From Fibrobacter succinogenes (lineage in GTDB: Bacteria > Fibrobacterota > Fibrobacteria > Fibrobacterales > Fibrobacteraceae): a stretch of DNA of 64,000 nucleotides. The notes under the pieces were generated by a model. That model made no database searches. It was not told where the DNA came from and saw nothing but the letters and a program-made list of their open reading frames with translations. Positions 7,980 to 40,257 of this stretch are shown piece after piece; positions within the stretch are counted from its first letter, which is position 1, and each line of letters opens with the position of its first letter. The translations under genes and the position numbers were made by a program. The stretch covers positions 6,084 to 70,083 of the forward strand of contig CADCDO010000011.1 of assembly GCA_902800345.1 (NCBI GenBank), given 5' to 3'.

Positions 7980-7983
7980 GGAT

Positions 7984-25598: not shown

Positions 25599-25729
25599 TT
25601 TTATCCTCTATGAAAAAAATTTGGCTCTTTTAAAATAGTAAAACATTGCTGATAAATATTATCAATATTTTATTTTTACCTCCACATTTTGTATATTTTC
25701 CGTCAACAATCAAAATAACCAGGATTTTT

Positions 25730-27559
25730 ATGTGCGGAATAGTTGGATACAATGGTAAGGGAAGTGCACTCCCGATCCTAGTGGAAGGTCTCAAGAAAAT
25801 GGAATACCGCGGCTATGACAGTTCAGGAGTCGCAGTTTTAGACCAAGGGAGTATAAAAGTCGTCCGCGCATCCGGCAAAATCAAGGCTCTCGAGGACAAA
25901 CTAAAAGAAACCCCGATTAAAGGTACCGTAGGCATAGCCCACACCCGCTGGGCCACCCACGGCGCCCCCACCGAAGAAAACGCCCACCCGCACACCAGCT
26001 ACGATGGAAAAATTTCGATTGTCCACAACGGCATCATCGAAAACTACGCAAGCCTCAAGGCAAAACTCATTTCCGAGGGAATCCAGTTCAAGTCCGAAAC
26101 CGACACCGAAGTCGTCGCCCACCTCATCGCACGCTATTACAACGGGGATTTGAAGTCCGCCGTCCTCAAGGCGCTCAAGCAAGTCGAAGGAACATTCGGC
26201 CTCGGCGTCATCTGCAGCGACGAACCGGACGTCTTGATCGGCGCCCGCCGCGGAAGCCCGCTTATCCTCGGCATCGGAAACGACGGGGACTTTTACCTCG
26301 CCAGTGACGTCGCCGCCATCATCAACCACACGCAAAAAGTCGTTTATCTGGACGACAACGACGTTGTACAAATCAAGAACGGCGGCTACTCCATCGTGAA
26401 CATGAGCAGCCACGAAGTGCAGCGCGAAGTCCAGGACGTGGAATTCGACGCCGACGCCGTCGCCAAGGGCGGATTCCCGCACTTCATGCTCAAGGAAATT
26501 TTCGAACAGCCCGACGTGCTCCGCAACACCATGCGCGGCCGCCTGCTCACCGCCGAAGGCAACGCGAAACTCGCCGGCCTCGACACGAACATCAAGGAAC
26601 TCAGGAACATCAACCGAATCATCATCACCGCCTGCGGCACAAGCTACTATGCCGGCATGGTCGGCGAATACATGATCGAAGACCTCGCCGGCGTCCCGGT
26701 CGAAGTCGAATACGCATCCGAATTCCGCTACAGGAACCCGATTATCAAGCCGGGCACGCTTGTACTCGCCATCAGCCAGTCCGGCGAAACGGCCGATACG
26801 CTCGCCGCCCTCAAGGAAGCCCAGCAAAAAGGCGCAACCGCGCTCGCCATCTGTAACGGAGTCGGTTCGACCATCGCGCGCACAAGCGACGGTGGCGTTT
26901 ACTTGCACGCCGGCCCAGAAATCGGTGTGGCTAGCACCAAGGCATTCACAAGCCAGGTGACCGTGCTTGCCATGATTGCACTTTTGCTCGGACGTCAACG
27001 CCGACTCAGCTTCGAGACAGGCGCCGACATCGTCAAGGACCTTACGGAACTTCCGGATCTCGTCACAGAGACCCTCAAGCTCTCCGACAGCATCGCCGAA
27101 ATCGCAAAGACCCTCAGCAAGGCGAACAACTTCTTGTACCTCGGTCGCCACTTCTGCTACCCGGTCGCCATGGAAGGCGCCCTGAAGCTCAAGGAAATCA
27201 GCTACATCCACGCCGAAGGCTACCCCGCCGCCGAAATGAAACACGGCCCGATTGCCCTCATCGACGAGAACATGCCCGTCGTGGTCATCGCCCCGAAAGA
27301 CGCCCTCTTCGACAAGATTATCAGCAACATCCGCGAAATCAAGGCCCGCGGCGGCAAAGTCATCGCCGTCACCACGGAAGACTGCCACCCGCTCGACGAA
27401 ATCGCAGACAACCTCATTATAGTGCCGAAGACCCGCCCGATGCTCATGCCGATTGTCACCTGCATTCCGTTGCAGCTCCTCGCCTACCACATCGCCGTGC
27501 TGCGCGGAAACGACGTGGACCAGCCGAGAAACCTCGCCAAGAGCGTAACGGTAGAATAA
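25730..27559 (+). CDS. glmS: Glutamine--fructose-6-phosphate aminotransferase
   Basis: I trimmed the entry to the ATG at 25730, giving MCGIVGY (N-terminal nucleophile Cys). It has two SIS domains and the canonical C-terminus NLAKSVTVE. Confidence 0.97.
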   Translation: MCGIVGYNGKGSALPILVEGLKKMEYRGYDSSGVAVLDQGSIKVVRASGKIKALEDKLKETPIKGTVGIAHTRWATHGAPTEENAHPHTSYDGKISIVHNGIIENYASLKAKLISEGIQFKSETDTEVVAHLIARYYNGDLKSAVLKALKQVEGTFGLGVICSDEPDVLIGARRGSPLILGIGNDGDFYLASDVAAIINHTQKVVYLDDNDVVQIKNGGYSIVNMSSHEVQREVQDVEFDADAVAKGGFPHFMLKEIFEQPDVLRNTMRGRLLTAEGNAKLAGLDTNIKELRNINRIIITACGTSYYAGMVGEYMIEDLAGVPVEVEYASEFRYRNPIIKPGTLVLAISQSGETADTLAALKEAQQKGATALAICNGVGSTIARTSDGGVYLHAGPEIGVASTKAFTSQVTVLAMIALLLGRQRRLSFETGADIVKDLTELPDLVTETLKLSDSIAEIAKTLSKANNFLYLGRHFCYPVAMEGALKLKEISYIHAEGYPAAEMKHGPIALIDENMPVVVIAPKDALFDKIISNIREIKARGGKVIAVTTEDCHPLDEIADNLIIVPKTRPMLMPIVTCIPLQLLAYHIAVLRGNDVDQPRNLAKSVTVE

Positions 27560-27618
27560 TAGGTCTTAGGGTTTTTCCACAGTTGGCGGAACTTAGAACT
27601 TAGAGCTTAGAAAGCAAG

Positions 27619-27642
27619 CCCCTCCCGACGGGAGGGGTTTTT
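27619..27642 (+). terminator. Intrinsic terminator after glmS
   Basis: The 7-bp GC stem CCCCTCC / GGAGGGG has loop CGACG and is followed by TTTTT. It sits 60 nt after the glmS stop. Confidence 0.7.
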
Positions 27643-27644
27643 AG

Positions 27645-27854
27645 CTATTTCATCATTTGATAGATGTAGAGCCAACTTTCGTGCCAAAGTTTAGAAGATT
27701 CCCTGCTGAGAATTTTGCAGACTGGGGAATTGTAGTATTTCAACAGGGCATCTTGAAGAGACAGATGCTCAGTGCGGTTCAGTTCACCACAAATCTTTGC
27801 AATCTTCCCAGGAATGAACAAATGAACATTCTCTTGTGTTACCTGCCGATTCAT
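27645..27854 (-). CDS. Small helical protein, DUF3791-like (third gene of the DUF3990 module)
   Basis: 69 aa. Its start codon overlaps the stop of the DUF3990 gene (TGATG). The family call is tentative, based on size, position and a helical LxxxL/W-rich pattern. Confidence 0.4.
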   Translation of the reverse strand: MNRQVTQENVHLFIPGKIAKICGELNRTEHLSLQDALLKYYNSPVCKILSRESSKLWHESWLYIYQMMK

Positions 27855-28342
27855 CAGCGAACCTCCTCGCTTTTTACAAAATTGAGAAACGCAAGGGAAC
27901 GTTCCGTATGAAAACAGAACTGGTTTACAAACTTCCAGGCTCTTAGTTCTTCAAGCAACTGAGGCCTTGAAAGAAAGCCCTGCTCGTAAAGATTAATACT
28001 GGCATAGACACTATCGTTTGCAACAGCTCCCTTTACAATGTCGTATTCGTACTTGAAATTCGCGTCTTGGCGATTAGCAATGACAAAGTCAAGCCATTCG
28101 TCATCGGCTCTTTCGAACACCTTGCTGTTGAGCGAAGAACTGGACAAATCCTGTTCATCAAATTCAAATTCCGAGACTACAGCCATTTCATACCCAAAAC
28201 GATCTTTTTTGATTAGCGACCAATCCTTAGCTTGTTTAAAACTAGATGTCGCATAGAATCCTTGGCCAAAGTCCATCGCTCGCGTAGGTTTCAAAATTTT
28301 CGGTTCGGAAACAGTTGTGAAGCCGCCATGATAGAGAATCAT
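27854..28342 (-). CDS. DUF3990-domain protein
   Basis: 162 aa. MILYHGG...DFGQGFYATS...DEWLDFVIANR...YDIVKGAVANDSV...NLY..G.....L..L......NQFCFHTE matches my memory of the DUF3990 consensus. It has TGATG overlaps with both flanking small genes. Confidence 0.7.
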   Translation of the reverse strand: MILYHGGFTTVSEPKILKPTRAMDFGQGFYATSSFKQAKDWSLIKKDRFGYEMAVVSEFEFDEQDLSSSSLNSKVFERADDEWLDFVIANRQDANFKYEYDIVKGAVANDSVYASINLYEQGFLSRPQLLEELRAWKFVNQFCFHTERSLAFLNFVKSEEVR

Positions 28343-28551
28343 CAGTCCCCCTTTTTCATCAAATCGTCAAGCGTCCCGAGGATGTAGTCTTTCCCCTGCG
28401 TGTGCAGAACTTCGTAATGCTTTTCCAAAAAAGAGATAATCCCCTTTTGAGCAAAGGAGTTCGCTATAGTCGTAGGATCCATCCGATAAAAAGCGGAATA
28501 TTCCTCGATACACCAGGATGCGAATGCAGCTATTTTTTCGAACTCAGACAT
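28342..28551 (-). CDS. DUF3791-domain protein
   Basis: 69 aa. FASWCIEEYSAFYRMDP....F...G...FL.KHYEVLHTQG matches the DUF3791 pattern usually paired with DUF3990. Confidence 0.6.
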   Translation of the reverse strand: MSEFEKIAAFASWCIEEYSAFYRMDPTTIANSFAQKGIISFLEKHYEVLHTQGKDYILGTLDDLMKKGD

Positions 28552-28610
28552 ATGGAATCAATAAACCTTTTCCTTAATATACATTTTTCGAACAGGTCTT
28601 CAAAATCACA

Positions 28611-28735
28611 TAAATTCCCCAAAGTGATGTTTTTTCGCGATTTGGGAAAATATACGCATAAAACTACGGATAATCTCCCAAATCTCTGAATTTTGACAAG
28701 ATTTGAGAGATTATACAACTTTTAGAGAATTGTAG
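28611..28735. repeat. Iteron-rich intergenic module, copy A (upstream of the DUF3791/DUF3990 operon)
   Basis: My hand alignment to 41741..41868 gives roughly three-quarters identity over about 125 bp. It starts TAA(A)TTCCCC(A)AAAGTGAT(G/A)TTTTTT. It contains 4 copies, in both orientations, of a motif of about 16 bp, GATTT(G/T)(G/A)G(G/A)(A/G)A(A/T)(A/T)TAT. Confidence 0.75.
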
Positions 28736-28750
28736 TGAGGTTTTTAGCAC

Positions 28751-28795
28751 ATTTAGAGAGTTATACCGCAAAAAAGTGCTTATAACTCTCTAAAT
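28751..28795. repeat. Perfect 15-bp inverted repeat of the iteron motif
   Basis: ATTTAGAGAGTTATA (28751-28765) and TATAACTCTCTAAAT (28781-28795) are separated by 15 nt. A further direct copy, ATTTTGAGAATTATA, lies at 28813-28827. Confidence 0.85.
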
Positions 28796-28973
28796 CTCAT
28801 ATTTTTTAGCACATTTTGAGAATTATAGAGAGGTTTTTGTCGAATAGCGTTTTTTTTCGAGGGAAACCCGGTAGTGTAAAGGAAACCGTTTTAATCGATT
28901 CTAGAAGGATACCCTATACAACCTTCGGCTTATAGCTTACGGGGGTATGATTCCTAATACGAAAGAAACTTTT

Positions 28974-31900
28974 TTACATCTTTTCAAATTCAACGCCAAG
29001 CAATGGAACCCAGATAGCCTGACCAAATTCATCTTCCCATTTACAAACTTGGATTAATTTAGCTGTTTTCGGCTTATAGAAATTTTTCTGGAGATTCCTG
29101 AGATAATCTTTTTCAAATTTATTAGAAAATTTGGTAACGTACCGCCCATTAAAGTACGTGTTGTAGCATTGAAATTCTTGATTAAATTTAATCTCAATTA
29201 CAGTTCCCAATGGAATGGATGCAAATTTCTCTTGTAAATATCGTGTCCGACTTTTATTCTTTTCATTTACAAGCATATATTTGAAGACCAAATCATCTAA
29301 GCCGGTTTCAACGTGTACTATCTTAGGTACACTATATTCTTTAAGTCTGCCCATATTTTTAAAATTCTTAATCCAAGAACTCGGAAGATTCGCCTCAGTT
29401 CCTAATACTGTAAGGGTTTTCTTGGCACGCGTTGCAGCAACATAGAGTAATCTGAATTGTTCCTGAGTTTCAGGAATCCATTCACCAAGATTTAATATAA
29501 CGTGATCCCATTCAAGTCCTTTTGAACTATGCATTGTACCAACATTAACCTGCAAATTTCCTTTTTTATTTAGGTCAGCATAAGAGACTTCGTTTAGGTA
29601 TTGTTCAAAATCACTTAAAACAACTTCGTCTTCACCATCTATAAAGTCGTTGATTACAGCATCTAACAATTCAAAGGAACTTTCGCCTTCATAGTCTTTC
29701 TTATACTTTTCTGCAATTTGTTTGAACAGCTCTATAGTCCAAGATCTCTTTGCAATATCTTTATCCGCTTCTACAATTGTTTTGAAACCAACAATTTCAC
29801 GAACTGATTCCACAGGACATTTTTCTAGATCCTGGCTTTTTATGACACGACAATCTACTCCTAATTCTTCTAATTTTGCTGCCGCCAAAAACACTTCTGA
29901 ATTTTCTGGACTTAGAATGCAAGCGGAACCATTATCTAATTTACATTTCTCAACCAAAATTTCAGCAGCGGCAAACGCACCTCGCGTTCTATCGTATTCT
30001 TCAAAGAATTCAAGTTTTCCAAGTTCAGGATTAACAGCAACTTGTTTCTTGCCATCTTTAACTCGATAATTTAGACAGCTCAATATTTCTTCATTTGCTC
30101 GAACAAGATTTACCGCAGAACGATAATTATTCGTTAAATAGAATTCTTTCGTATTGGAAAATTCCGATGAAAATTTTCTAAAAAATTCAGAGGAACTTCC
30201 TCGAAATTCAAAAATACTTTGGTCATCATCCCCAACAACTATCAATCTCGGAGGTTTATCTCCATACCTATAGAGGGCTTTTAACATTTTGTATTCCGAA
30301 CTAGAAAGGTCTTGAAATTCATCAACAAGAATAACGCCTAGTGAACCAATTCCAACATCTTCGCCAGATTCAACGACCTCTGCGGCTTTATTAATAATTT
30401 CTTCGCCTTTTTGCGCATTGCCCGTCTTCTTAAAATCCTTCTTAGAGCCCTGAATTCCTAGAATTGAAAAAGCCAAGGCATGGAAAGTTGTGATAGTAAC
30501 ACCATGGGCCAACCCCTTTGCCAAATCATTTAATCGCTTGCGAAGTTCTCGACAAGCTGAACGTGTAAAAGTCAATATCAACAAAGAATTGGGTTGAATT
30601 TCTTCCAACCACAACAAAGACGCGGCCTTATGTACAAGCATGTGTGTTTTGCCAGACCCTGGTCCAGCGCCAACTAAAATATGTCTCGCATTACTTTTGA
30701 TAATTGCTTTCTGTTCTTTATTAACCGCGTTTATACGTTCACGCAAATTTATGGAAACGGCACCCTTTTCATCGGGAGACATCATGTATTTTTGACGGAA
30801 TTGATTAATATTCAACGTAAAATAGTCATTCAGCAATTCTTGTGCGGCTTCTTTATTGTTAAGCATCATTTGGGCATACCTGCCGACAATATGAATCGCT
30901 TCAGCCTTGTTTTCATAAAAGTCGTGGAGTTTCTGAAAATCTTGTTCACTAAATGGTTTTGTCCTATTTTCAGGACTTATATCCAAAACAAGCCCAGTAT
31001 AGAATACCATCAATCCATTTTCTAGACTAATGGCTCCAATCAAATGCAAGAAGAGTAAAGCAAATTCAAATTGCGCTTGCCTTGCAAGGTCTTCAATGTC
31101 GTCTTCCCCATAGATTCTCAAGATGAGATTGTCTATAGAGAACCAAACAGTATCATTAAGAGTATCATCTTTCTTTTTTCCCTGCTCTTTTTGTATAACA
31201 AGCAGAGTATCGATAATCCGTTCAAAACATTCCCAGTTATCAACAAGATTCTTACGGACAATATCAAGTTCTTTTAGAAATTCAATTTGATATCGCTGAT
31301 GACCTGCCTCTATTAAATGAATTTCTGCAATACTTTCATGAGCCCAATAACGAAGAATACCTCGCAAAATTTGCAGACATTTTCTTGTTTCAGTTCCAGA
31401 TTCAGATTCACCTCGAGCAGCATTGACTTTCGTCAAATTCAGCAAAAACGGCTCATTGATACAATGACCCTCACAACTTTTTAACAGAATTTCTTGTAAA
31501 CCCTTCGCCCGTTCCAGCATTCGTTTGCAATTAAAGGTCCCCAAGCGTTGAATCTTTGCACTCCAATCATTTCGTTGGTCTAAAAGACGTTTGCTACGAA
31601 GCAGCCGTAAAGCCTCATTTGCATCTTTTCGTTCAATGCCCAAATTGACTGTAATATCATCAAGAGCACATTCAGGATTCTTTGTCCATCTTTTAGTGAT
31701 AATATGTCGCATGATTCTAAATGCGATGTTTTCAATCGTATTTGTCTTATCAATGTTTGGACTATCTAAAATGTACCGAATCTGTGAAACAGTTTCTATG
31801 GCAATTGAGGAACCAAATACTTGTGTTTGATTCCGTTTTCTTTTCAAAAAGCCTTGATCTTCCAAAAGCATAATGGCGTGCTTAACTTTTGTTTCTAGCG

Positions 31901-33908
31901 CTCCTATATTTTCGTTTTGCTCAGTCCAACCGCATTTATCTGCAATTTCCAAAGCAGACATCACAAGCCGTTCACGTTTCTCGCTTTGCTTCATTAATAC
32001 ACGCCAAATGTCACCAATTTCTTTTTCAGATAATTTTGATTGCTGCAAAAGTTGAAAATTGGTATCCAAATCTTTTGAATTGTACAGGGCAACACAAAAA
32101 GCCTGCATATCCGGGTTTCTACCCGCACGACCAGCCTCTTGCACATAGTTTTCTAATGTACTTGAAATTTCGTAATGAGCGACTAATTTGACATTGTTTT
32201 TGTCAACCCCCATTCCAAATGCTGTGGTAGCGACAATCGTATCAATGTTTCCATCAGTTTTTTGAAATTCTTCCTGAACATCTATTTTAATATCAGCATC
32301 CATTTGACCATTATAACAACCGCTTTTGAAACCATACTCTTTTAAACTCTCTGCTAATTTTTCGGTTGTTTTAACTGTAGTTGCATAAACTATTTTAGGT
32401 CCATCATACAACTTCAATAAATTAACAAGTTCTTTTCCACGTTCATGTTTATCTCTAGATGCAGGTATAACAGAATATTCCAAATTTTTTCTTGTTGCAG
32501 AGCTAACAATCTTTACCAAATCGAGATTCATTCTTTTCTTAAAATATCCACAAATATCATCAACGACATCCTGTTTTGCTGTTGCCGTAAAACAACTGAT
32601 TGGAATAGATGATTCCAAACGCTTTTCTTTTTCGAGATCCTTGATAAAATCGGCAAGATAAAGATAATCAACTCGGAAATCTTGTCCCCAAGCACTAAAA
32701 CAATGCGCTTCGTCTATAACAAATCGTTCTATACGGCGTTGTTTTAGCAACTTAAATATCGTATTGGAACGAAGAGCCTCGGGCGAAATATAAAGAATGT
32801 CTTTTTCATTATCAAGAATTGCCCTAATTGTATTTTTTCGCTCTAATGGAGAAATTTGTGAGTATATACACGCGGCACGATCTATTCCAAAACGCTTTGT
32901 CAACACATCCACTTGGTCTTTCATCAAAGCCACAATCGGCGAAATCACAACCGTCAGTGCACCAATTTGGCTACCAGCAATCAAAGCTGGCAATTGAAAA
33001 GTCATTGACTTTCCACCGCCAGTCGGGAAAACCGCTAAAAGAGAATCTCCTCGCATTGCTGTTTCAACAACGCGCTGTTGTAAGGGAATTATTTCATCTT
33101 TCTCAAAAGAACGGAAAGCATCAAATCTAAACCATTTCTTTAATTGCTTTGTTGAACTTAGCTGTTCTGAGCAATATAGACATTGAAAATTGCCGCAAGG
33201 AACAAGACGACGATGATGCAAAATACTTTCAAGATGTGGGTACTGGTAGCGAACCCAATGGGGAACAAAATCACTAATTCCATCCTCATAGAATAGCGTT
33301 AAGAGGAAACTCCATTCTATAGGAGACTCCTTTATCTCATCACGACAATTTGTCAAACATAGTTTCGACTTATAATTCTCATAAAGCCAAACAAACACTT
33401 CCTTACGTTTTTCTTTAACCTCAGGCTGAGCAAAATCGCCAACTATTTCAAAGAATGGAGCAAAACCCGGTTTATCGTACAACAAACAATACAACAGTAA
33501 TCGCAATTGCCATGGAAAGGTTTTCCATTTTTCAACACAGGCTTCCAACAAGTCCTTGCATAGATCCGCATCTTTGAGAGAGTTTGAAGGATCATTTTCA
33601 TCACGCAGATATTCCTTGCGTAACTTATGATAGGGTTCACGAGGAAATATAAGTGGTGATAATCTTAATGTATCTAGAACCTTGATGCTTGGGAAATCGA
33701 TTGAAAAGTATTGTTTGATGATTGGAACATCATGTTGTAAAGCGTTGTGCCCCACAATAAATTTCGCTTTTGATGCAGCATCTTCTAATTTTGCGGGATT
33801 TTTCTCACGAGCACGATCCTCACCTAGAATATAGCCGTATTCCCGAACAATTTCCGTTCCAGGATTATACTCCAAATCAAAAAATAAAAAATCGTGCAAA
33901 TTATCCAT
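28974..33908 (-). CDS. 1644-aa triple fusion: DEDD (DnaQ-like) 3'-5' exonuclease + RecQ-type SF2 helicase + UvrD/Rep-type SF1 helicase
   Basis: - Exonuclease region (about aa 8-130): FFDLEYNP and IVGHNALQHDVPII.
- RecQ core (about aa 270-620): FPTGGGKSMTFQLPAL (Walker A at nt 33002-33032), ISPIVALMKDQ, VIDEAHCFSAWGQDFRVDY and QEAGRAGRN.
- UvrD core (about aa 1060-1580): LVGAGPGSGKTH (nt 30661-30683), ILTFTRSA, ILVDEFQDLS, VVGDDDQSIFEFRGS, TNNYRS, GTMHSSKGLEWDHVIL and LLYVAATRAKKTL. Confidence 0.85.
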   Translation of the reverse strand: MDNLHDFLFFDLEYNPGTEIVREYGYILGEDRAREKNPAKLEDAASKAKFIVGHNALQHDVPIIKQYFSIDFPSIKVLDTLRLSPLIFPREPYHKLRKEYLRDENDPSNSLKDADLCKDLLEACVEKWKTFPWQLRLLLYCLLYDKPGFAPFFEIVGDFAQPEVKEKRKEVFVWLYENYKSKLCLTNCRDEIKESPIEWSFLLTLFYEDGISDFVPHWVRYQYPHLESILHHRRLVPCGNFQCLYCSEQLSSTKQLKKWFRFDAFRSFEKDEIIPLQQRVVETAMRGDSLLAVFPTGGGKSMTFQLPALIAGSQIGALTVVISPIVALMKDQVDVLTKRFGIDRAACIYSQISPLERKNTIRAILDNEKDILYISPEALRSNTIFKLLKQRRIERFVIDEAHCFSAWGQDFRVDYLYLADFIKDLEKEKRLESSIPISCFTATAKQDVVDDICGYFKKRMNLDLVKIVSSATRKNLEYSVIPASRDKHERGKELVNLLKLYDGPKIVYATTVKTTEKLAESLKEYGFKSGCYNGQMDADIKIDVQEEFQKTDGNIDTIVATTAFGMGVDKNNVKLVAHYEISSTLENYVQEAGRAGRNPDMQAFCVALYNSKDLDTNFQLLQQSKLSEKEIGDIWRVLMKQSEKRERLVMSALEIADKCGWTEQNENIGALETKVKHAIMLLEDQGFLKRKRNQTQVFGSSIAIETVSQIRYILDSPNIDKTNTIENIAFRIMRHIITKRWTKNPECALDDITVNLGIERKDANEALRLLRSKRLLDQRNDWSAKIQRLGTFNCKRMLERAKGLQEILLKSCEGHCINEPFLLNLTKVNAARGESESGTETRKCLQILRGILRYWAHESIAEIHLIEAGHQRYQIEFLKELDIVRKNLVDNWECFERIIDTLLVIQKEQGKKKDDTLNDTVWFSIDNLILRIYGEDDIEDLARQAQFEFALLFLHLIGAISLENGLMVFYTGLVLDISPENRTKPFSEQDFQKLHDFYENKAEAIHIVGRYAQMMLNNKEAAQELLNDYFTLNINQFRQKYMMSPDEKGAVSINLRERINAVNKEQKAIIKSNARHILVGAGPGSGKTHMLVHKAASLLWLEEIQPNSLLILTFTRSACRELRKRLNDLAKGLAHGVTITTFHALAFSILGIQGSKKDFKKTGNAQKGEEIINKAAEVVESGEDVGIGSLGVILVDEFQDLSSSEYKMLKALYRYGDKPPRLIVVGDDDQSIFEFRGSSSEFFRKFSSEFSNTKEFYLTNNYRSAVNLVRANEEILSCLNYRVKDGKKQVAVNPELGKLEFFEEYDRTRGAFAAAEILVEKCKLDNGSACILSPENSEVFLAAAKLEELGVDCRVIKSQDLEKCPVESVREIVGFKTIVEADKDIAKRSWTIELFKQIAEKYKKDYEGESSFELLDAVINDFIDGEDEVVLSDFEQYLNEVSYADLNKKGNLQVNVGTMHSSKGLEWDHVILNLGEWIPETQEQFRLLYVAATRAKKTLTVLGTEANLPSSWIKNFKNMGRLKEYSVPKIVHVETGLDDLVFKYMLVNEKNKSRTRYLQEKFASIPLGTVIEIKFNQEFQCYNTYFNGRYVTKFSNKFEKDYLRNLQKNFYKPKTAKLIQVCKWEDEFGQAIWVPLLGVEFEKM

Positions 33909-33972
33909 ACTTTACAAATATATAAGAAAAAATTTCAAAACAAACCTCGCACGAAAAAACAATCCACTTCAA

Positions 33973-36900
33973 TCAGTTGCTAAACTCATTCCAAATGAAC
34001 TTTTCCTTATATTCGCAAGCAGGATAATTAGAACATCCCACAAAATAATGGCCATTATAGCCTTTTCGTTTTATAAGGAACCCTCCACAATTAGGACATA
34101 TTTTAGGACTTGACAAAATAGTCACGTCTCTTTGCGCATACCGACACCGCGGAAAATTAGAACACCCCACAAAAGATTTACCATCATGTTCAACTTTCAG
34201 CAAGTCTCCCGTTTTACAAAGAGGACATTTCGTCTGTTTTCCACTTGTTCTTCTCCTCGTTGATTTGAAGAATACAGATGTAGATTCTGAAAATTCCTTG
34301 AAAAATGGCGATGGATTCTTGTTGTCCACAAGGACATATGTTCTATTTTTTGTTCGGGTAATAGCAACATAAAATAAACGACGTTCTTCCGCAAATCTGT
34401 AGTCTTCTGCATTTGTAAGAACAAAATTCAAAACAGGATCATCAATTATCTGATTCGGGAAACCAAGTTTGTCATTTCTAAAATTCAGAAGAATAACATT
34501 ATCTGCTTCCAATCCTTTTGATTTGTGAACGGAAAGGAATTGTATTGGCAACATCGGATTTTGAATGTACTCTAGTGCTTCAGTACCATTCTTCCGAATT
34601 TCTCGGAATAAGCCGGTATCTTTTGCAATTTCTATATCGTAATTTGTTCTCCCTAAAAGTAAAATGGACGAATTCGTTCCATAATCCAAAGCGATTTTAT
34701 TGATTATCGCTTGCAAAGCGTTTCTCGGATTGTCATCGAAGCCCCAAAAAACAAGAGGATAATCTAGCTTTTTATCGGAGCGTAAACATTTCTTGAGCTG
34801 AAGTGGATTTTGCAAAACAAAACGCGAAGCTTCATCGATTAACTTTTGCGAATTACGATAAGTTTTCTCAATTTTCAATATTTTCGTTTTTCCAAAATAC
34901 TTTGCAATATCAGTAAATAACGAAATATCGCTACCAGCAAACCTATATATGGATTGCCAGTCATCCCCTACACAGAATAACTTCGCTTTTGTTTTATCGA
35001 CAATAGCCTTTAACAGATTAAATCTAGCCTTCGAGATATCCTGGTATTCATCAACAATCACATATTTATACACAGGAATCTCGCAACCAGCATTAACCTT
35101 CTCTGTTGCATTGTTTATCATATCCGAAAAGTCTATTGAATTATTAGCTATTAAGTGTTTTTGATATTCTTCCAATATCACTCTTATTATATTCAAAAAA
35201 GTGTTGTTTCTTCTTTGCAAGAAACTGTTATTTTCTAACGAAAGCCAATCTTTCCAATTATCAATCGTTCCTATTGTATAATTATTAGACTTAAAAAGCA
35301 CAATAAAAGTTCCGCACAATTTTACAAATTCAGAGAAATACTTATTCGTCTTGGTTGCGTAAACAGTATTGAAAATATCCATGAAATTTCTTGATTTCAG
35401 AACAACCCCATTTTGTTTTAGAAGTTCTTCAAGTTTTTGCAGGAGAACACCTTCTGAATTGTAGTATGAATAAGTTTCAATCAACTTAGTTTTATTCTGC
35501 TTATGAAAATCTCTTTTCCATTCAATTCCTTCTAAATATTTTTGAGCTTCAACAAGAGAAAGCCACGGAACCGTATAATCTCTTGTTATTCCAAAATGTT
35601 CTAAATAAATATCATAATCTTTCAAATAAAAATCCGGCCTATATGCTTTTCGCAAGGGATCCTGACTTTCGAAAGGATAGATTTTTTCATATTCGTAATT
35701 TACGCCATTTAAAAAAAGAAAATTTGCAATCTGAACTTCTTGAAGACTTTTTACTTTTTCATTTTTAAGCGTTGTATGATCCTGCGCTTTCTTTATTTTT
35801 TCTTCATGTATATATTTTTCTTGATCATATTTTGATTTAAGAGTTTCTAAATCTACGCTTTTTTCAGCCTCATACATTTCACCCAACGAAGAACATTCTT
35901 CCATATTTTGCGGGATATCGATATAATACGCAAAGTATTCAATTATATTTTTCACTAAATCAGGATAATTTACAAGTTCCTTTTCAAAAAAAACATGTAT
36001 AAATTTATTAAAGAGAGATTCATCAAGAACCTCAGGCCTTTTCCCATCAGCACTTTTGATTATATCAAGACCTAACTTGTGAAAAGTAGTCGAGTTAACA
36101 GGAATTCCCAACTTTCCCTGAATTCTATCGGTCATTTCTTGAGCAGATTTTTTCGTAAACGAAATAAGAAGTATTTCCTCTGGATTTATATTCTTGACAT
36201 CGCAAAGATACTTAACCTTGCCTGCAATCGTTAGTGTTTTTCCGCTACCCGCTCCGGCAAGAACAAGGATTCTATCTTCATCGGTTATGACAGCTTCTCT
36301 TTGTTGCAGATCCAAAGACTTACCATCTATATCAGAAAACAAAGAATCATATTTTTGTGATTCTTGTGCAATAAATAATTTATTCGCATTTTCCAAATAA
36401 TTGGAAAATTTCTTATAAGTCGTTTCAAAAAGATTTATTTTTCTATATTCATCATCATTCGTTTTTAAATTACAAGTTGCAACATCTTGAGACAATTTTT
36501 TCCATTTCAGATGAAATATTTCACCATCAGCATCCGTAACATAATAACTCGTCAGCACACGTAGTTCTTCAAAAAAAATGTTCACAAATTGCAAAAGCAG
36601 CTTGAGTTGTTCCTTACGCCTAATCTCTGCATTTGATTCTAAAACAAGCCTTGGGAAATCTTCGTATTTTCTTCTAAATTCTTCTAATATTACAAAAGTT
36701 TTTACTTTTGAAGAAATACGACTGTACTTTAGCAATTCAAAATACAAAGCCTGATATTTTAGAATGAACGTATCTCTTTCGGTATCTTGGATATAGTGTT
36801 TAAACAATCCGTCAAATTCAATTAAAAATGATTCTACTTCGATTAAGAGCTCTTTGCATTTGATTTCCACATTTGATTCTATAACGAGCCTCGGAAAATC

Positions 36901-37188
36901 TTTGTACTTCTTCTTAAAATCTTCTAACTTTACAAAATCATCAACTTTTGATGGAATACCACTATACCTTTGCAACTCATAATACAACACTTTATACTTA
37001 AAAACAAAGGCGTCCCTTTCTGCATCCTGAATATAGTGATTAAAGATACCGTCAAAGTCAACGAAAAAACAATCACATATTTCTATGAAGTTTTCTACTT
37101 TTTGTTCAAATTCTTTAGCAAGTTGTCTCCGATGTGCCACGTAACATAGAGCAACTGAAGTGAATAATACAATTATTAGCACAAACAT
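33973..37188 (-). CDS. Membrane-anchored UvrD/helicase-IV-like SF1 helicase with a PD-(D/E)xK-like insert and two C-terminal topoisomerase-type C4 zinc ribbons
   Basis: The ORF track starts at a TTG (37197); I prefer the ATG at 37186-37188 (MFVLIIVLFTSVALCYVA, a TM helix).
- Helicase motifs: VLAGAGSGKTLT (nt 36241-36264), ISFTKKSA, VIVDEYQDIS, CVGDDWQSIYRFAGS, TYRNS, SVHKSKGLEADNVILL and RRLFYVAITRTKNR.
- Insert: YRPDFYLKDYDIYLEHFG (nt 35591-35640).
- C-terminus: CPLCKTGDL..GCSNFPRCRY and CPNCGGFL..GCSNYPACEY. Confidence 0.8.
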   Translation of the reverse strand: MFVLIIVLFTSVALCYVAHRRQLAKEFEQKVENFIEICDCFFVDFDGIFNHYIQDAERDAFVFKYKVLYYELQRYSGIPSKVDDFVKLEDFKKKYKDFPRLVIESNVEIKCKELLIEVESFLIEFDGLFKHYIQDTERDTFILKYQALYFELLKYSRISSKVKTFVILEEFRRKYEDFPRLVLESNAEIRRKEQLKLLLQFVNIFFEELRVLTSYYVTDADGEIFHLKWKKLSQDVATCNLKTNDDEYRKINLFETTYKKFSNYLENANKLFIAQESQKYDSLFSDIDGKSLDLQQREAVITDEDRILVLAGAGSGKTLTIAGKVKYLCDVKNINPEEILLISFTKKSAQEMTDRIQGKLGIPVNSTTFHKLGLDIIKSADGKRPEVLDESLFNKFIHVFFEKELVNYPDLVKNIIEYFAYYIDIPQNMEECSSLGEMYEAEKSVDLETLKSKYDQEKYIHEEKIKKAQDHTTLKNEKVKSLQEVQIANFLFLNGVNYEYEKIYPFESQDPLRKAYRPDFYLKDYDIYLEHFGITRDYTVPWLSLVEAQKYLEGIEWKRDFHKQNKTKLIETYSYYNSEGVLLQKLEELLKQNGVVLKSRNFMDIFNTVYATKTNKYFSEFVKLCGTFIVLFKSNNYTIGTIDNWKDWLSLENNSFLQRRNNTFLNIIRVILEEYQKHLIANNSIDFSDMINNATEKVNAGCEIPVYKYVIVDEYQDISKARFNLLKAIVDKTKAKLFCVGDDWQSIYRFAGSDISLFTDIAKYFGKTKILKIEKTYRNSQKLIDEASRFVLQNPLQLKKCLRSDKKLDYPLVFWGFDDNPRNALQAIINKIALDYGTNSSILLLGRTNYDIEIAKDTGLFREIRKNGTEALEYIQNPMLPIQFLSVHKSKGLEADNVILLNFRNDKLGFPNQIIDDPVLNFVLTNAEDYRFAEERRLFYVAITRTKNRTYVLVDNKNPSPFFKEFSESTSVFFKSTRRRTSGKQTKCPLCKTGDLLKVEHDGKSFVGCSNFPRCRYAQRDVTILSSPKICPNCGGFLIKRKGYNGHYFVGCSNYPACEYKEKFIWNEFSN
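36493..37095 (-). repeat. Intragenic tandem duplication (2.4 copies of a 240-bp/80-aa unit) in the N-terminus of the UvrD-like helicase
   Basis: In ORF-track numbering, aa 44-123 (FFVDFDGIFNHYIQDAERDAFVFKYKVLYYELQRYSGIPSKV..KKKYKDFPRLVIESNVEIKCKE) align to aa 124-203 (FLIEFDGLFKHYIQDTERDTFILKYQALYFELLKYSRISSKV..RRKYEDFPRLVLESNAEIRRKE). A degenerate third partial copy follows. Confidence 0.85.
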
Positions 37189-37202
37189 GTTTAGCAAACG
37201 CC

Positions 37203-38384
37203 TTACCCCTTAAAATTCCAAATTTCGTACCCTTGCCGTCTTGCAGAATCATATACGGGTTGCATGTTCTTTTTCAGAATATTGATAAATTGTTCTTCAC
37301 TATTTCCCGCTCGAAAAAGTTCCGTTTCAGCCCATATCGAATGAATGTTGTCGCGGTAACATTTCTCAAAGCGGTTGCGAACGAATTCGTCATTCCACAT
37401 CAAACGATACATTGCATATTGGTTGTCAGCAAATTGCTTGAAAAAAGTCCAATGTGGCAGGCGATTATTCTTGGAAGAGTTTAACGAAGAATCCATCGGA
37501 ATCAGATTCCACAATTCATCGTTCATCACGAACGACCATGGAATAAAATGGTCAATATCGTAATCATTTTCAATAGGCTTGTTTGTATAGATGTCAAGAA
37601 TCGTTTCTCGTTGCAGGATTATTTCCCATAGTTTGCGGACTTGTTCAAGTTTTCGAGTACTTGCATCCAAAGGAGAAAGTTTATACACAATACCCGGAAC
37701 TTCGGGATTGTTGACTTGCAACCATTTTGATTTTTCATGCTGAATCCATCCAAGAATCGCAACCGAATTGTCTTGAATATATTGTTTCCATATCGGATTA
37801 AAAACAACTTTACGATTTAGCTGCGGATTTTCGTCAAAGGTGTACGGCAGCAAAATACGGCGATTCACTGCTTGCGTATATCCAATGATTGCCGAGGTAC
37901 TATTCCAATTGACTTTTTCCCCACGTCCCTGTTCGTAACGATTATAAAATCCTGCCAACGCTCGATAAGGAACATATTTTGTCAATGCGATTTTATACTT
38001 CTTAATATCTCTGTTAAATTCCTTGATTGCATTCTTGATTTCTATCTTGGATGCATTGGATTGCAAGTCACTCTTTTCGGCTAAATCAGTAACGGCCAAT
38101 TCTAACGCATCGCGAAATTCGCCTTTCAGCATACCGCTCAAGTGAATGTGATATTCGCGGACAGTGAACCATGCATTCGCAATCATTTCGTCAATAATCG
38201 CATCAAAACTTGCAACGCTCACATTTTCATCAATCAATTTGACAATCGCTTCAAGCCAATAGAACTTGTAACAATATGTTGGATCTTTCATCATGAGCGA
38301 AAAACACTCGACATCGAGTTGATTGCAATAGGGCGAATTAACATCCAAAGCTAAGCTTTGCGGGAAAGGATTATATTCATCCAT
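37203..38384 (-). CDS. HNH endonuclease-domain protein (Cas9/HNH_4-type motif) with an uncharacterised N-terminal domain of about 270 aa
   Basis: 393 aa. The motif is YDIDHFIPWSFVMNDELWNLIPMDSSLNSSKNNRLP (nt about 37455-37562). It fits D-x-D-H-x-x-P-x-S...N-L-x-P...N-x-x-K-x-x-x-x-P. The start overlaps the methyltransferase gene by 34 nt. Confidence 0.75.
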   Translation of the reverse strand: MDEYNPFPQSLALDVNSPYCNQLDVECFSLMMKDPTYCYKFYWLEAIVKLIDENVSVASFDAIIDEMIANAWFTVREYHIHLSGMLKGEFRDALELAVTDLAEKSDLQSNASKIEIKNAIKEFNRDIKKYKIALTKYVPYRALAGFYNRYEQGRGEKVNWNSTSAIIGYTQAVNRRILLPYTFDENPQLNRKVVFNPIWKQYIQDNSVAILGWIQHEKSKWLQVNNPEVPGIVYKLSPLDASTRKLEQVRKLWEIILQRETILDIYTNKPIENDYDIDHFIPWSFVMNDELWNLIPMDSSLNSSKNNRLPHWTFFKQFADNQYAMYRLMWNDEFVRNRFEKCYRDNIHSIWAETELFRAGNSEEQFINILKKNMQPVYDSARRQGYEIWNFKG

Positions 38385-38941
38385 TTTTCTTCGCTCCTAT
38401 TCGGTCTTACATCCATAGATATCCAATATTCATCGCATTTCAATTCAGGAATATTCAAAAGAAATTCAGCAAACGTTTGCTCTGTAAAATCAGAAAAATA
38501 ACGGGCGTTTCTTTCGCCAGAAAAAGTCCCATATTTGAACGATGTATAAATTATTCCAGCAGGCTTAAGGGCCACTGACATTTTTTTCATAACAGGAATA
38601 AGTTCATCGTTTGGCAAATGAAGAATAGAAGCACACGCCCAAATTCCATCGTATTTTGCGACAGCATCTAATTGTTGAAAAAACATTTGCCTAACGGCAA
38701 GGCCCGTGTAGGCACTGGCAATTTTGCACAGTTCTTCTGAACCATCGACAGCGTCCACATCATAACCTTTCATAAGGAACGCTTTCGCATCACGACCAGC
38801 ACCACACCCAAAGTCCAATATTTTCGCATGTAGCGGTAAATAATTGAGGAATCGATCCTGCGTGGCAGAAAAATCTACACCAATAGTACTGCTGGAGTAT
38901 TCCTTCGCATTTTTATTATAATAATCAACGGATGTTGTCAT
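38351..38941 (-). CDS. Class I SAM-dependent methyltransferase (small-molecule/Methyltransf_11-25 type, not an obvious DNA MTase)
   Basis: 196 aa. Motif I is ILDFGCGAGRDA, with an acidic post-I residue (DAVDGS) and motif II YDGIWACASILHL. I saw no (D/N)PP(Y/F) motif and no cytosine-5 PC/ENV motif. Confidence 0.85.
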   Translation of the reverse strand: MTTSVDYYNKNAKEYSSSTIGVDFSATQDRFLNYLPLHAKILDFGCGAGRDAKAFLMKGYDVDAVDGSEELCKIASAYTGLAVRQMFFQQLDAVAKYDGIWACASILHLPNDELIPVMKKMSVALKPAGIIYTSFKYGTFSGERNARYFSDFTEQTFAEFLLNIPELKCDEYWISMDVRPNRSEEKWMNIILSRKA

Positions 38942-39201
38942 GAGTTTTTTAAGCTTTATACTATGTTTGAAAATCTATATAAAAATAAGCGACAGATAAA
39001 GCAAAAAGACCTCAAAAATAACGTCTAAAGCAAATAAAGGAAGAAAAGCTCAACAAACCTCGACATATTTGCAAAATAAGCCCTCTGGATGAGGACGGCA
39101 AAGACGCCGATGAAGTCAAATACCCCCACTTGCCTTCCCTCGCCGTATTTTGTATATTCCCCAATAGTCAAGCTATAGTGGCAGGATAAGCCTGCGACAA
39201 G

Positions 39202-39238: not shown

Positions 39239-39255
39239 GTTTTAAGGAGAAAAAA

Positions 39256-40245: not shown

Positions 40246-40257
40246 CAGGGAAAAACT

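What the first reader, a model, noticed from the sequence alone, without database searches (positions are those of the whole stretch)
28974..33908. Single polypeptide combining a DEDD exonuclease, an SF2 RecQ core and an SF1 UvrD core
The SF1 and SF2 helicase cores in one chain both keep intact Walker A/B and arginine-finger motifs. RecQ has GGGKS, DEAH and QEAGRAGR. UvrD has GSGKT, DEFQD and VAATRAK.

A DnaQ-like exonuclease head precedes them. The two cores are separated by an uncharacterised linker of about 430 aa (about aa 630-1060, nt about 30730-32020).

A dual motor with a nuclease head recalls the logic of RecBCD/AddAB in a single chain. RecQ and UvrD are both 3'-5' helicases, so the mechanistic rationale is unclear.
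Basis: partly seen in the sequence, partly recalled or inferred. Interest (0 to 1): 0.7.

Follow-up and report, generated by a model that had tools for sequence, protein, structure and literature searches.

The report
Single-chain exonuclease–RecQ–UvrD dual-motor enzyme
This is a real gene, found in hundreds of bacterial species but never studied, whose single 1644-residue protein joins a 3'-5' exonuclease-type domain, a RecQ helicase motor and a UvrD helicase motor through a chain of DNA-binding winged-helix domains; it moves between genomes as a stand-alone gene and often lands among anti-phage defence genes.

Summary
Window 28974-33908 (minus strand) is one intact 1644-aa ORF. Identical copies occur on at least 10 independent contigs. 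Full-length relatives (1580-1760 aa) form a family of about 340-980 clusters at 50% identity, found in at least 595 species genomes.

The three claimed domains are real:
- **DnaQ-fold exonuclease (aa 1-135):** the four acidic residues are invariant, but the canonical Exo III His/Tyr is missing.
- **RecQ-family SF2 core (aa 268-625).**
- **UvrD/PcrA-type SF1A core (aa 1059-1502).**

Every ATPase motif residue examined was invariant or nearly so in 118 homologues.

The "uncharacterised linker" is predicted to be about four winged-helix-like units plus a helical bundle. Two further modules were found: a helical module with an invariant Cys4 site (aa 136-267) and a conserved C-terminal domain (aa 1503-1644).

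The gene has no conserved partner and no synteny even within genera. It is absent from phages, present on some plasmids, and here lies in a low-GC island beside defence-candidate genes.

The RecBCD/AddAB analogy is weak. The closest analogues are WRN and ExoDinG, with a UvrD motor added. Function is untested. I favour an accessory, probably anti-mobile-element, enzyme that processes 3'-ended DNA. No publication on it was found.

The parts
33504..33908 (-). aa 1-135: DnaQ-fold 3'-5' exonuclease-like domain (non-canonical DEDD). The acidic residues D11, E13, D60 and D113 are present; Exo III position 108 is Ser.
   Evidence: AF2 model has pLDDT 88.8 with a b1-b2-b3-a-b4-a-b5-a topology. Foldseek top hits are 9ii8 (S. 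aureus DinG), 3k5o (Pol II) and 1skw (T7 polymerase). The family profile hits 9l8b at E 8.6e-4. D11, E13, D60, D79, H94, K98 and D113 are invariant in 116-118 of 118 sequences.
33108..33503 (-). aa 136-267: all-helical module with an invariant four-Cys cluster (C184, C237/238, C243, C246), probably a metal site. It ends in RecQ motif 0.
   Evidence: The AF2 model shows helices 133-260. C184, C243 and C246 are 118/118. The fourth Cys is at column 237 (41 sequences) or 238 (77 sequences), which sums to 118.
32034..33107 (-). aa 268-625: RecQ-family SF2 helicase core with motifs 0, I (GGGKS), II (DEAH), aromatic-rich loop (WGQDF), III (TAT) and VI (QEAGRAGR).
   Evidence: Pfam DEAD plus Helicase_C. 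TIGR00614 scores 262 bits, above the 219.8 cut-off. PDB RecQ 1oyw E 2.6e-49. Motif residues are 116-118/118.
30735..32033 (-). aa 626-1058: family-specific connector, about four winged-helix-like units followed by a helical bundle.
   Evidence: AF2 pLDDT 78 with a repeated H-H-H-hairpin pattern. Foldseek top hits are multi-WH proteins (RPC82/RPC62, TFIIIC tauB, Stn1, Cdt1, PadR), with weak E-values from 5e-3 upward. The profile hits MarR 3nrv at E 3e-3. In the listed full-length proteins the linker is found only in this architecture.
29403..30734 (-). aa 1059-1502: UvrD/PcrA/Rep-type SF1A helicase core with motifs I (GSGKT), II (DEFQD), III (GDDDQ), IV (YR) and VI (VAATRAK).
   Evidence: Pfam UvrD-helicase, AAA_19 and UvrD_C. 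PDB UvrD 3lfu E 1e-25 and PcrA. Motif residues are 111-118/118.
28977..29402 (-). aa 1503-1644: conserved C-terminal domain of unknown fold (W1624 invariant in alignment A4; FS..F and RV.LP motifs). The stop codon is at 28974-28976.
   Evidence: Alignment A4. No Pfam or PDB relative was found. Its divergence correlates with that of the UvrD and linker modules (r 0.93-0.94).
33973..37197 (-). Upstream co-directional gene: Helicase IV-like UvrD-family protein (1074 aa) with two C-terminal Topo-I-type zinc ribbons. It is a partner only in close Fibrobacter relatives.
   Evidence: NCBIfam PRK11054 Helicase IV E 6.5e-103; Pfam Zn_ribbon_Top1 x2. It is conserved next to the target in L006, a 59%-identical homologue at another chromosomal site. 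It is absent from the other 82 loci.
37203..38384 (-). HNH_4 endonuclease-domain protein (393 aa), third gene of the cassette.
   Evidence: Pfam HNH_4 E 4.6e-11. Homologues lie beside the target in 5 of 84 loci across two phyla.
38351..38941 (-). Small SAM-dependent methyltransferase (196 aa), overlapping the HNH gene by 34 nt; first gene of the cassette.
   Evidence: Pfam Methyltransf_25/12/23; PADLOC mad2 E 1.1e-12. A methyltransferase-HIT version overlaps the HNH homologue in L056, L066 and L073.

Best explanation
**What it is.** The ORF encodes a genuine six-module enzyme, in this order:
1. a non-canonical DEDD (DnaQ-fold) 3'-5' exonuclease-type domain;
2. a helical Cys4 metal-binding module;
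3. a RecQ-family SF2 motor;
4. about four winged-helix domains plus a helical bundle;
5. a UvrD/PcrA-type SF1A motor;
6. a small conserved C-terminal domain.

The fusion arose once and is inherited as a unit. All three catalytic centres are under strict purifying selection, so all three activities are probably used.

**Its biology.** It is a stand-alone, horizontally mobile accessory gene, not a core repair gene. Here it is the last gene of a four-gene operon in a low-GC island rich in defence-candidate genes.

**Proposed mechanism (inferred, not shown).**
- The winged-helix array holds duplex or branched DNA.
- The two motors, both 3'-5' by family, each take one 3'-ended or antiparallel single strand of a gapped, forked or D-loop intermediate.
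- RecQ opens the branch or duplex.
- The UvrD motor strips proteins (recombinase or polymerase) and unwinds in the opposite direction along the duplex.
- The N-terminal exonuclease degrades the freed 3' end.

In this way all three activities converge on 3'-ended DNA.

**Likely role.** The most likely biological role is destruction or disabling of replication and recombination intermediates of invading DNA (plasmids, phages, ICEs). Host accessory repair is the main alternative.
For: **Shown: architecture and selection.**
- The ORF and its motifs.
- Domain assignments.
- The catalytic and motif residues examined are 111-118/118 across homologues at 34-100% identity.
- Module divergences correlate at r 0.82-0.97.
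- The linker is found only inside 1580-1760-aa proteins at ~600-1100.

**Shown: accessory and mobile.**
- The ORF is at GC 0.37 in a GC 0.33-0.43 island, against about 0.51 in the flanks.
- No neighbour family is conserved. The commonest cluster is in 5 of 84 loci, and no Pfam family is in more than 3 of 148 neighbours.
- Proteins that are 78-89% identical within Pontibacter, Paludibacter and Flavobacterium have almost entirely different +/-6 neighbours.
- The cassette lies at a different chromosomal site in L006.
- 17 plasmid or chromid records carry a copy at >=80% coverage.
- The phyletic spread is patchy and includes an archaeal MAG.

**Suggestive of conflict or defence.**
- Window neighbours hit PADLOC candidates PDC-M13, PDC-S05 and PDC-S27.
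- Pontibacter oryzae has McrBC, a Type I R-M system and SIR2 next door.
- Paludibacter loci carry GmrSD_N, HNH_2, a Schlafen-like helicase, AlbA_2, ATPase_2 and RhuM.
- Type I methyltransferases and Fic are among the commonest neighbours.
Against: - There is no experimental datum for any activity or phenotype.
- The exonuclease lacks the canonical Exo III His/Tyr (S108; N or S across the family). It could therefore be slow or a binding-only module.
- Many loci have ordinary metabolic or transport neighbours, and defence enrichment was not quantified against a background.
- PADLOC 2.0 has no full-length model for the protein, only domain-level hits to DpdF, PsyrT and GajB.
- The polarity of both motors is assumed from family membership.
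Confidence: 0.5

Rival explanations
1. Accessory genome-maintenance enzyme for the host. On this view it is a bacterial WRN-like Exo-RecQ unit coupled to a UvrD motor. It would process stalled or reversed forks, gaps or mismatch-repair-type excision tracts. UvrD unwinding combined with a DEDD 3'-5' exonuclease mirrors UvrD plus ExoX/ExoI in E. coli mismatch repair (my own knowledge).
For: - The domain logic matches known repair enzymes: WRN is Exo-RecQ-WH, and ExoDinG is the best structural hit for the N-terminus.
- Many loci have housekeeping neighbours, including nfo, gyrB, RNase H and ribosomal proteins.
- The protein is absent from phages.
- One locus lies near umuDC and radC.
Against: - There is no synteny within genera.
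- The distribution is patchy and the gene here sits in a low-GC island.
- Copies occur on plasmids, and decay to a pseudogene is seen.
- Defence genes recur next door.
- Core repair genes are normally syntenic and vertically inherited.
Confidence: 0.3
2. Only one motor is a true helicase. The other would act as an ATP-driven ssDNA translocase, protein stripper or conformational switch. Parallels, from my own knowledge, are the dispensable AdnA motor of AdnAB and the inactive second cassette of Brr2. This concerns the mechanism and is compatible with either a defence or a repair role.
For: - UvrD-family monomers are translocases that need activation to unwind (established knowledge).
- The RecQ core is the most conserved module, at 63% mean pairwise identity against 46% for UvrD.
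- Both motors have the same polarity by family, so they cannot co-translocate on the two strands in one direction.
Against: The ATPase and DNA-coupling motif residues examined in both motors are invariant or nearly so. These include the RecQ aromatic-rich loop and UvrD motifs III, IV and VI. That is not the pattern of a degenerate cassette.
Confidence: 0.25
3. In this Fibrobacter lineage the protein is one subunit of a four-gene system: methyltransferase, HNH nuclease, Helicase IV-like protein and the Exo-RecQ-UvrD protein. Its activity would depend on those partners, for example in a modification-dependent or restriction-like system.
For: - The four genes are co-directional and tightly packed: a 34-nt overlap, then a gap of about 5-14 nt depending on the Helicase IV-like start, then 64 nt.
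- The cassette is conserved at a different site in a 59%-identical relative.
- The HNH plus methyltransferase pair recurs beside distant homologues in Paludibacter and Cyclobacteriaceae.
Against: - 79 of 84 loci lack the HNH and methyltransferase genes, and 82 of 84 lack the Helicase IV-like gene.
- The pair changes side and order, as expected for independent neighbours in a defence island.
- The methyltransferase looks like a small-molecule type (Methyltransf_25, TehB-like), not a typical DNA methyltransferase.
Confidence: 0.2
4. Artefact: two or three genes joined by a sequencing frameshift or assembly error.
For: None was found. The only multi-CDS version, on Nostoc pNPUN02, has in-frame stop codons in a single frame.
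Against: - The identical 1644-aa product is found on 10 contigs from independent assemblies.
- Nearly every complete locus of 84 has one 1590-1650-aa ORF.
- The linker profile finds 978 clusters at 50% identity.
Confidence: 0.01

Closest known systems
WRN (Werner syndrome protein; eukaryotic RecQ with an N-terminal DEDDy exonuclease)
   Same: The N-to-C order matches: DnaQ-fold 3'-5' exonuclease, RecQ SF2 core, then winged-helix domain(s). The RecQ core matches WRN structures at E 1e-35. A 3'-5' exonuclease is coupled to a 3'-5' helicase.
   Different: - WRN is DEDDy. This family has neither Tyr nor His at the Exo III position.
- There is no RecQ-Ct zinc subdomain after motif VI and no HRDC.
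- This protein has four WH units instead of one, plus a complete UvrD motor and a C-terminal domain that WRN lacks.
ExoDinG (Firmicutes DinG with an N-terminal DEDDh exonuclease; S. aureus and B. subtilis)
   Same: It is the best structural match of the N-terminal model (9ii8, prob 1.00, 206 aligned columns). Both have an exonuclease domain followed by a helical bundle leading into an SF2 motor, as described for ExoDinG in PMC11981726.
   Different: The ExoDinG motor is XPD-like (5'-3') with an FeS or pseudo-FeS domain and a DEDDh active site. Here the motor is RecQ-type, the His is absent, and a second SF1A motor is present.
RecBCD / AddAB / AdnAB helicase-nuclease complexes
   Same: Two ATP-driven motors plus nuclease activity in one machine. 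AdnAB also pairs two motors of the same family polarity (my own knowledge). The UvrD core gives weak NCBIfam hits to RecB and AddA.
   Different: - There is no PD-(D/E)xK nuclease.
- The motors are SF2 plus SF1A, not SF1A plus SF1B or SF1A plus SF1A.
- It is a single chain with no partner genes.
- There is no evidence for DNA-end loading or Chi recognition.
Stand-alone or modular defence helicases: DpdF and PsyrT/RqlH (RecQ-like), GajB (UvrD-like)
   Same: Domain-level similarity: PADLOC DpdF E 1.8e-88, PsyrT E 9.6e-74, GajB E 4.8e-47. Defence-island neighbourhoods occur in several loci.
   Different: The hits cover only one motor each. The partners that define those systems (other Dpd genes, PsyrA/RqlI, GajA) are absent. 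No PADLOC model covers the full architecture.

Membership tests
RecQ family (SF2) | Helicase motifs 0, I, Ia, II (DExH), III, V and VI, plus the aromatic-rich loop (SxWGxDFR) between motifs II and III | tested here: met
   F265, R266 and Q277 (motif 0), GGGKS, DEAH, W407-G-x-D410-F411, TAT and QEAGRAGR are all 116-118/118.
RecQ family (SF2) | Score above a curated family threshold | tested here: met
   The TIGR00614 recQ_fam subfamily model scores 262.2 bits against a cut-off of 219.8. The RecQ equivalog TIGR01389 fails (290 against 640), so this is a family member but not an orthologue of E. coli RecQ.
RecQ family (SF2) | RecQ-Ct zinc-binding subdomain (four Cys) directly after the helicase core | tested here: not met
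   There is no Cys cluster after motif VI; only C605 and C658 are present. The NCBIfam and PDB alignments stop at about residue 629. An invariant Cys4 cluster lies N-terminal of the core instead.
RecQ family (SF2) | RQC winged-helix and HRDC domains | tested here: inconclusive
   There is no Pfam RQC or HRDC hit. The AF2 model shows a WH-like unit immediately after the core and three more. No HRDC-like element was identified.
UvrD/Rep/PcrA family (SF1A) | SF1 motifs I, II, III, IV, V and VI, with Pfam UvrD-helicase plus UvrD_C above threshold | tested here: met
   PF00580 scores 137.9 bits (cut-off 23) and PF13361 scores 64 bits (cut-off 25.6). GSGKT, DE(F/Y)QD, GDDDQ, YR and TR are 111-118/118.
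UvrD/Rep/PcrA family (SF1A) | Orthology to a named enzyme (UvrD, PcrA, Rep or Helicase IV equivalogs) | tested here: not met
   The best equivalog scores are 122-141 bits against cut-offs of 543-1144.
UvrD/Rep/PcrA and RecQ | 3'-5' translocation polarity | not testable with these tools
   Polarity is inferred from family membership only.
DEDD (DnaQ-like) 3'-5' exonucleases | RNase H-like DnaQ fold | tested here: met
   AF2 pLDDT 88.8. The Foldseek top hits are exonuclease domains of DinG, Pol II and T7 polymerase, prob 0.95-1.00.
DEDD (DnaQ-like) 3'-5' exonucleases | Four metal-binding acidic residues in Exo I (DxE), Exo II (D) and Exo III (D) | tested here: met
   D11, E13, D60 and D113 are invariant and align to the Exo motifs of 9l8b.
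DEDD (DnaQ-like) 3'-5' exonucleases | Fifth catalytic residue in Exo III: His (DEDDh, H-x4-D) or Tyr (DEDDy, Y-x3-D) | tested here: not met
   Position 108 is N71/S42 (Ser here) and position 109 is N81/D36. The invariant residues H59, H94, K98 and Y100 are candidate substitutes; this is inference.
DEDD (DnaQ-like) 3'-5' exonucleases | Curated sequence-model match | tested here: not met
   There is no Pfam hit at E<10. NCBIfam gives only sub-threshold hits, E 0.04-0.26, all to DEDD families.
RecBCD/AddAB-type helicase-nuclease | PD-(D/E)xK (RecB-type) nuclease domain and an SF1A+SF1B or SF1A+degenerate-SF1 motor pair in a multi-subunit complex | tested here: not met
   No such nuclease domain is detected anywhere in the protein. 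The motors are SF2 plus SF1A. There are no conserved partner genes.
Catalogued anti-phage defence systems (PADLOC-DB 2.0) | Full-length match to a system protein together with that system's partner genes | tested here: not met
   Only partial, single-domain hits were found (DpdF 266-630, GajB 1057-1507). Partner genes are absent.

The most novel reading that the evidence does not exclude
This family would be a new class of single-protein immune or anti-mobile-element effector. An SF2 RecQ motor and an SF1A UvrD motor, tethered by a winged-helix array, would run in opposite directions along a duplex from an internal entry site (a gap, fork or D-loop). A non-canonical DEDD exonuclease would destroy the released 3' ends. 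This mode of action has no characterised precedent among helicase-nucleases.
Probability: 0.2. Interest if true: 0.8.

Novelty: new variant of a known kind. Interest (0 to 1): 0.6.

Why it matters
Helicase-nuclease machines such as RecBCD, AddAB, WRN, Cas3, Gabija and Hachiman are central to repair and immunity. I know of no characterised enzyme that combines an SF1 and an SF2 DNA motor in one chain, and five literature searches found no description of one.

This family is large: about 340-980 clusters at 50% identity, in at least 595 species. Its architecture is uniform, and all three active sites are under strict selection. It is therefore a well-defined target for biochemistry and structural work rather than a one-off fusion.

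It offers a natural system for asking how two motors of the same nominal polarity cooperate on one DNA substrate. It may also add a widespread single-gene system to the inventory of bacterial genome-conflict tools in Bacteroidota, Clostridia and Fibrobacterota, which include gut and rumen bacteria.

Tried and rejected
- **Pfam on isolated regions.** Scans of the N-terminus, linker and C-terminal domain at E<=10 gave nothing useful. The exonuclease and WH assignments needed family profiles and structure prediction.
- **C-terminal domain.** A profile search against PDB sequences found no relative.
- **Conserved partner gene.** Clustering the +/-4 neighbours of 84 loci found none; the commonest cluster was in 5 loci. 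Pfam and PADLOC scans of 148 immediate neighbours showed no dominant family. A proper defence-enrichment statistic could not be computed, because the tool reports only the top families.
- **Natural split-gene versions.** The Nostoc pNPUN02 three-CDS annotation is a single frame with two in-frame stops beside an ISNCY transposase. PGAP's '3'-5' exonuclease' label there sits on the UvrD C-terminal fragment, not on a DEDD domain. The short hits have coordinates typical of contig-end fragments.
- **RecBCD/AddAB membership.** Rejected; see the membership test.
- **Phage origin.** Rejected: none of 50,697 phage records has a full-length match.
- **Promoter and terminator scan of the island.** Uninformative: 33 promoter-like sites against 40 expected.
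- **Literature.** Five full-text searches found no description of the fusion.
- **Neighbouring genes.** The Helicase IV-like insertion (aa 380-660), its N-terminal repeats and the HNH protein's N-terminal 265 aa gave no Pfam hits.
Full report
**1. The observation**

Window 28974..33908 is a single ATG-initiated ORF of 1644 aa on the minus strand.

Pfam finds DEAD (275-450, E 8.6e-32) plus Helicase_C (494-598), and UvrD-helicase (from 1063, E 6.6e-40) plus AAA_19 and UvrD_C (1399-1501). NCBIfam places the first motor in the RecQ family: the TIGR00614 subfamily model scores 262 bits against a cut-off of 219.8. It falls below the RecQ equivalog cut-off. The second motor is nearest UvrD, PcrA, Helicase IV and Rep, below all equivalog cut-offs. 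PDB sequence hits agree: RecQ 1oyw E 2.6e-49, WRN about 1e-35, UvrD 3lfu about 1e-25.

**2. Not an artefact, and not rare**

- The identical protein is recorded on 10 contigs from NCBI, ENA and Logan assemblies, with the same neighbours.
- A protein search returned about 100 full-length homologues (1500-1800 aa, 34-100% identity). All carry both helicase domain sets. Sources name them only 'RecQ family ATP-dependent DNA helicase'.
- A scan of species-representative genomes with the family-specific linker found at least 595 loci. They come from Bacteroidota, Clostridia, Fibrobacterota, Lentisphaerae, some Proteobacteria and one archaeal MAG.
- In 84 loci analysed, nearly every complete copy is one ORF of 1590-1650 aa.
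- An exhaustive profile search with the linker found 978 clusters at 50% identity with E<=1e-3, and 339 with E<=1e-30. In the listed full-length proteins (1580-1760 aa) the linker lies at about residues 600-1100.

**3. The exonuclease head**

Pfam sees nothing in residues 1-260, even at E<10. NCBIfam gives only sub-threshold hits, but all four are DEDD families: PolC, DinG and two annotated 3'-5' exonuclease families.

A 26-sequence family profile hits a DEDD exonuclease structure (9l8b, E 8.6e-4). The alignment runs through FFDLE (Exo I), HNxxFD (Exo II), DTL and the Exo III helix.

An AlphaFold model built on that alignment is confident (pLDDT 88.8, pTM 0.86) and has the DnaQ topology. Its best PDB matches are the exonuclease-bearing S. 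aureus DinG (9ii8, prob 1.00), E. coli Pol II and T7 DNA polymerase.

D11, E13, D60 and D113 are invariant in 116-118 of 118 homologues. However, the position that aligns with the catalytic His of DEDDh enzymes is Ser108 here, and Asn (71) or Ser (42) across the family. The DEDDy position is Asn or Asp. The invariant family-specific residues H59, H94, K98 and Y100 could supply the general base; that is inference. So the fold and metal site are confirmed, but activity is unproven.

**4.

- **Helical Cys4 module (aa 136-267).** These residues are helical. They carry C184, C243 and C246 in 118/118 sequences, and a fourth Cys at column 237 or 238 in all 118. This is a Cys4 metal site (Zn or Fe-S). 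It lies N-terminal of the RecQ core, whereas the canonical RecQ zinc subdomain after motif VI is absent.
- **The 430-aa 'linker' (aa 626-1058).** It models at pLDDT 78 as about four helix-helix-helix-hairpin units followed by a helical bundle. The Foldseek hits are weak (best E 5e-3) but consistent. They are multi-winged-helix proteins: Pol III C82/RPC62, TFIIIC tauB, Stn1, Cdt1 and PadR/MarR. The sequence profile weakly hits MarR and ArsR regulators at residues ~725-777.
- **C-terminal domain (aa 1503-1644).** It is conserved and has no detectable relative.

**5. Selection and evolution**

The motif residues checked are invariant or nearly so (111-118 of 118). These cover RecQ motif 0, I, II, the aromatic-rich loop, III and VI, and UvrD motifs I, II, III, IV and VI.

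Pairwise divergence of the six modules is strongly correlated (r 0.82-0.97). Among pairs under 45% identity, r is still 0.50-0.85 for RecQ, linker and UvrD. This indicates one ancestral fusion inherited as a unit.

The only 'split' version found, on Nostoc pNPUN02, is one reading frame with two in-frame stop codons beside an IS element. It is a pseudogene.

**6. Genomic context**

Here the gene lies in a low-GC island (GC 0.33-0.43 against about 0.51) between glmS and scpA. It is the last of four tightly packed co-directional genes: a small SAM methyltransferase, an HNH_4 protein, a Helicase IV-like protein with two Topo-I zinc ribbons, and the target. The island also carries PADLOC defence candidates: DUF3990 (PDC-M13), ORF6N (PDC-S05) and ATPase_2 (PDC-S27).

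The four-gene cassette recurs at a different chromosomal site in a 59%-identical Fibrobacter homologue. Outside that clade the Helicase IV-like gene is absent. The HNH plus methyltransferase(-HIT) pair recurs in only three further loci, on either side of the target.

Across 84 loci no neighbour cluster occurs in more than five, and no Pfam family occurs in more than 3 of 148 immediate neighbours.

Congeneric species whose proteins are 78-89% identical share almost none of the +/-6 flanking genes. That argues against a core, vertically inherited repair gene.

Defence genes recur nearby. Pontibacter oryzae has McrBC, a Type I R-M system and SIR2. Paludibacter loci have GmrSD_N, HNH_2, Schlafen-like helicases, AlbA_2, ATPase_2 and RhuM. 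Other loci look ordinary.

No phage record carries the full gene. Seventeen plasmid or chromid records do.

**7. Mechanism**

*Shown:* the architecture, the conservation of the active sites, and the accessory, mobile character of the gene.

*Inferred:* both motors belong to families that translocate 3'-5' on ssDNA. They therefore cannot chase each other along the two strands in one direction, as RecB and RecD do.

The simplest coherent reading is that all three catalytic modules act on 3'-ended DNA at a branched or gapped intermediate held by the winged-helix array:
- RecQ opens the branch.
- The UvrD motor clears bound proteins and unwinds the antiparallel strand in the opposite direction.
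- The exonuclease removes the freed 3' end.

Such an enzyme would dismantle D-loops, rolling-circle or recombination-dependent replication intermediates of invading DNA. Equally, it could process stalled host forks.

I favour the conflict or defence reading on context (about 0.5 in all, less for the mechanistic detail). Accessory repair is the main rival (about 0.3). A 'one working helicase plus one translocase or switch' variant is compatible with either role.

**8. Comparison with known systems**

The N-terminal two-thirds is WRN-like in domain order (Exo-RecQ-WH). Its exonuclease plus helical-bundle head resembles ExoDinG.

It is a RecQ-family member by motif and score, but lacks the RecQ-Ct zinc subdomain and HRDC. 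It is an SF1A UvrD-family member, but not an orthologue of any named enzyme.

It fails the defining features of RecBCD/AddAB. No catalogued defence system covers it.

Five full-text literature searches found no description of an Exo-RecQ-UvrD or RecQ-UvrD fusion. Absence from that library is not proof of absence.

**9. Verdict**

- It is a new variant of a known kind (helicase-nuclease machines).
- The family is abundant, uniform and uncharacterised.
- Interest is 0.6.

Noticed in passing
window ~27600-41800: Low-GC island (GC 0.33-0.43 against about 0.51 in the flanks), immediately downstream of glmS (25646-27559) and upstream of scpA (41928-43940). Besides the four-gene cassette it carries DUF3990 (27854-28342; PADLOC PDC-M13), an ORF6N protein (39256-40245; PDC-S05, E 4e-104) and an ATPase_2 protein (40258-41694; PDC-S27, E 5e-195). 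No integrase or transposase ORF was seen. Strains with the identical target protein differ by a DUF3791 gene next to DUF3990 (L002 and L003 against the window and L001).
   Followed up: partly
window 33973-37197 (-): The Helicase IV-like neighbour (1074 aa) has several unusual features:
- a hydrophobic N-terminal segment;
- two tandem repeats of about 95 aa, visible in the translation (FxGxFxHYIQDxERDxF...DFPRLVxESNxEI);
- an insertion of about 280 aa in the UvrD core (aa ~380-660), containing a PD-(D/E)xK-like string YRPDFYL...IYLEHFG with no Pfam hit;
- two C-terminal Topo-I-type C4 zinc ribbons.
   Followed up: partly
window 37203-38941 (-); L056:5245-7169, L073:1712-3636, L066:13062-14974: An overlapping two-gene module recurs beside Exo-RecQ-UvrD genes in Fibrobacter, Paludibacter and Cyclobacteriaceae, in different orders and on different sides. 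One gene encodes an HNH_4 protein (350-393 aa, N-terminal 'YK(F/Y)YWF/L' motif, no Pfam hit for the N-terminal 265 aa). The other encodes a small SAM methyltransferase, which in Bacteroidota is fused to a HIT domain. It may be an uncharacterised defence pair in its own right.
   Followed up: partly
window aa 184, 237/238, 243, 246 of the target (nt ~33171-33359): An invariant Cys4 cluster lies N-terminal of the RecQ core in all 118 homologues, whereas the canonical RecQ zinc-binding subdomain C-terminal of the core is missing. This may be a relocated or independent metal site (Zn or Fe-S).
   Followed up: partly
window 17471-19471 (-): 666-aa protein with an AIPR (abortive infection phage resistance) domain, E 2.3e-16. 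It lies outside the low-GC island.
   Followed up: no
window 10140-17348 (-): Very long ORF (2402 aa, TTG start) with no Pfam family at E<=1e-5.
   Followed up: no
window 41928-43940 (+): The ScpA homologue is 670 aa. The SMC_ScpA domain covers only residues 29-241. It is followed by an acidic, Ser/Ala/Glu-rich low-complexity tail of about 430 aa.
   Followed up: no
L089 (Nostoc punctiforme pNPUN02, NC_010632.1) 6767-11785: A decayed family member is annotated as three CDS. PGAP calls the UvrD C-terminal fragment a '3'-5' exonuclease', a label that could mislead domain surveys. All three CDS are in one frame, separated by in-frame TAA and TAG codons. The copy lies next to an ISNCY transposase and downstream of an N6 DNA methylase plus helicase-related pair.
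   Followed up: yes
L082 (Candidatus Methanomethylophilaceae archaeon MAG, CAVERO010000006.1): A full-length 1593-aa family member sits on a contig binned to a gut methanogenic archaeon. This is either inter-domain transfer or bin contamination.
   Followed up: no
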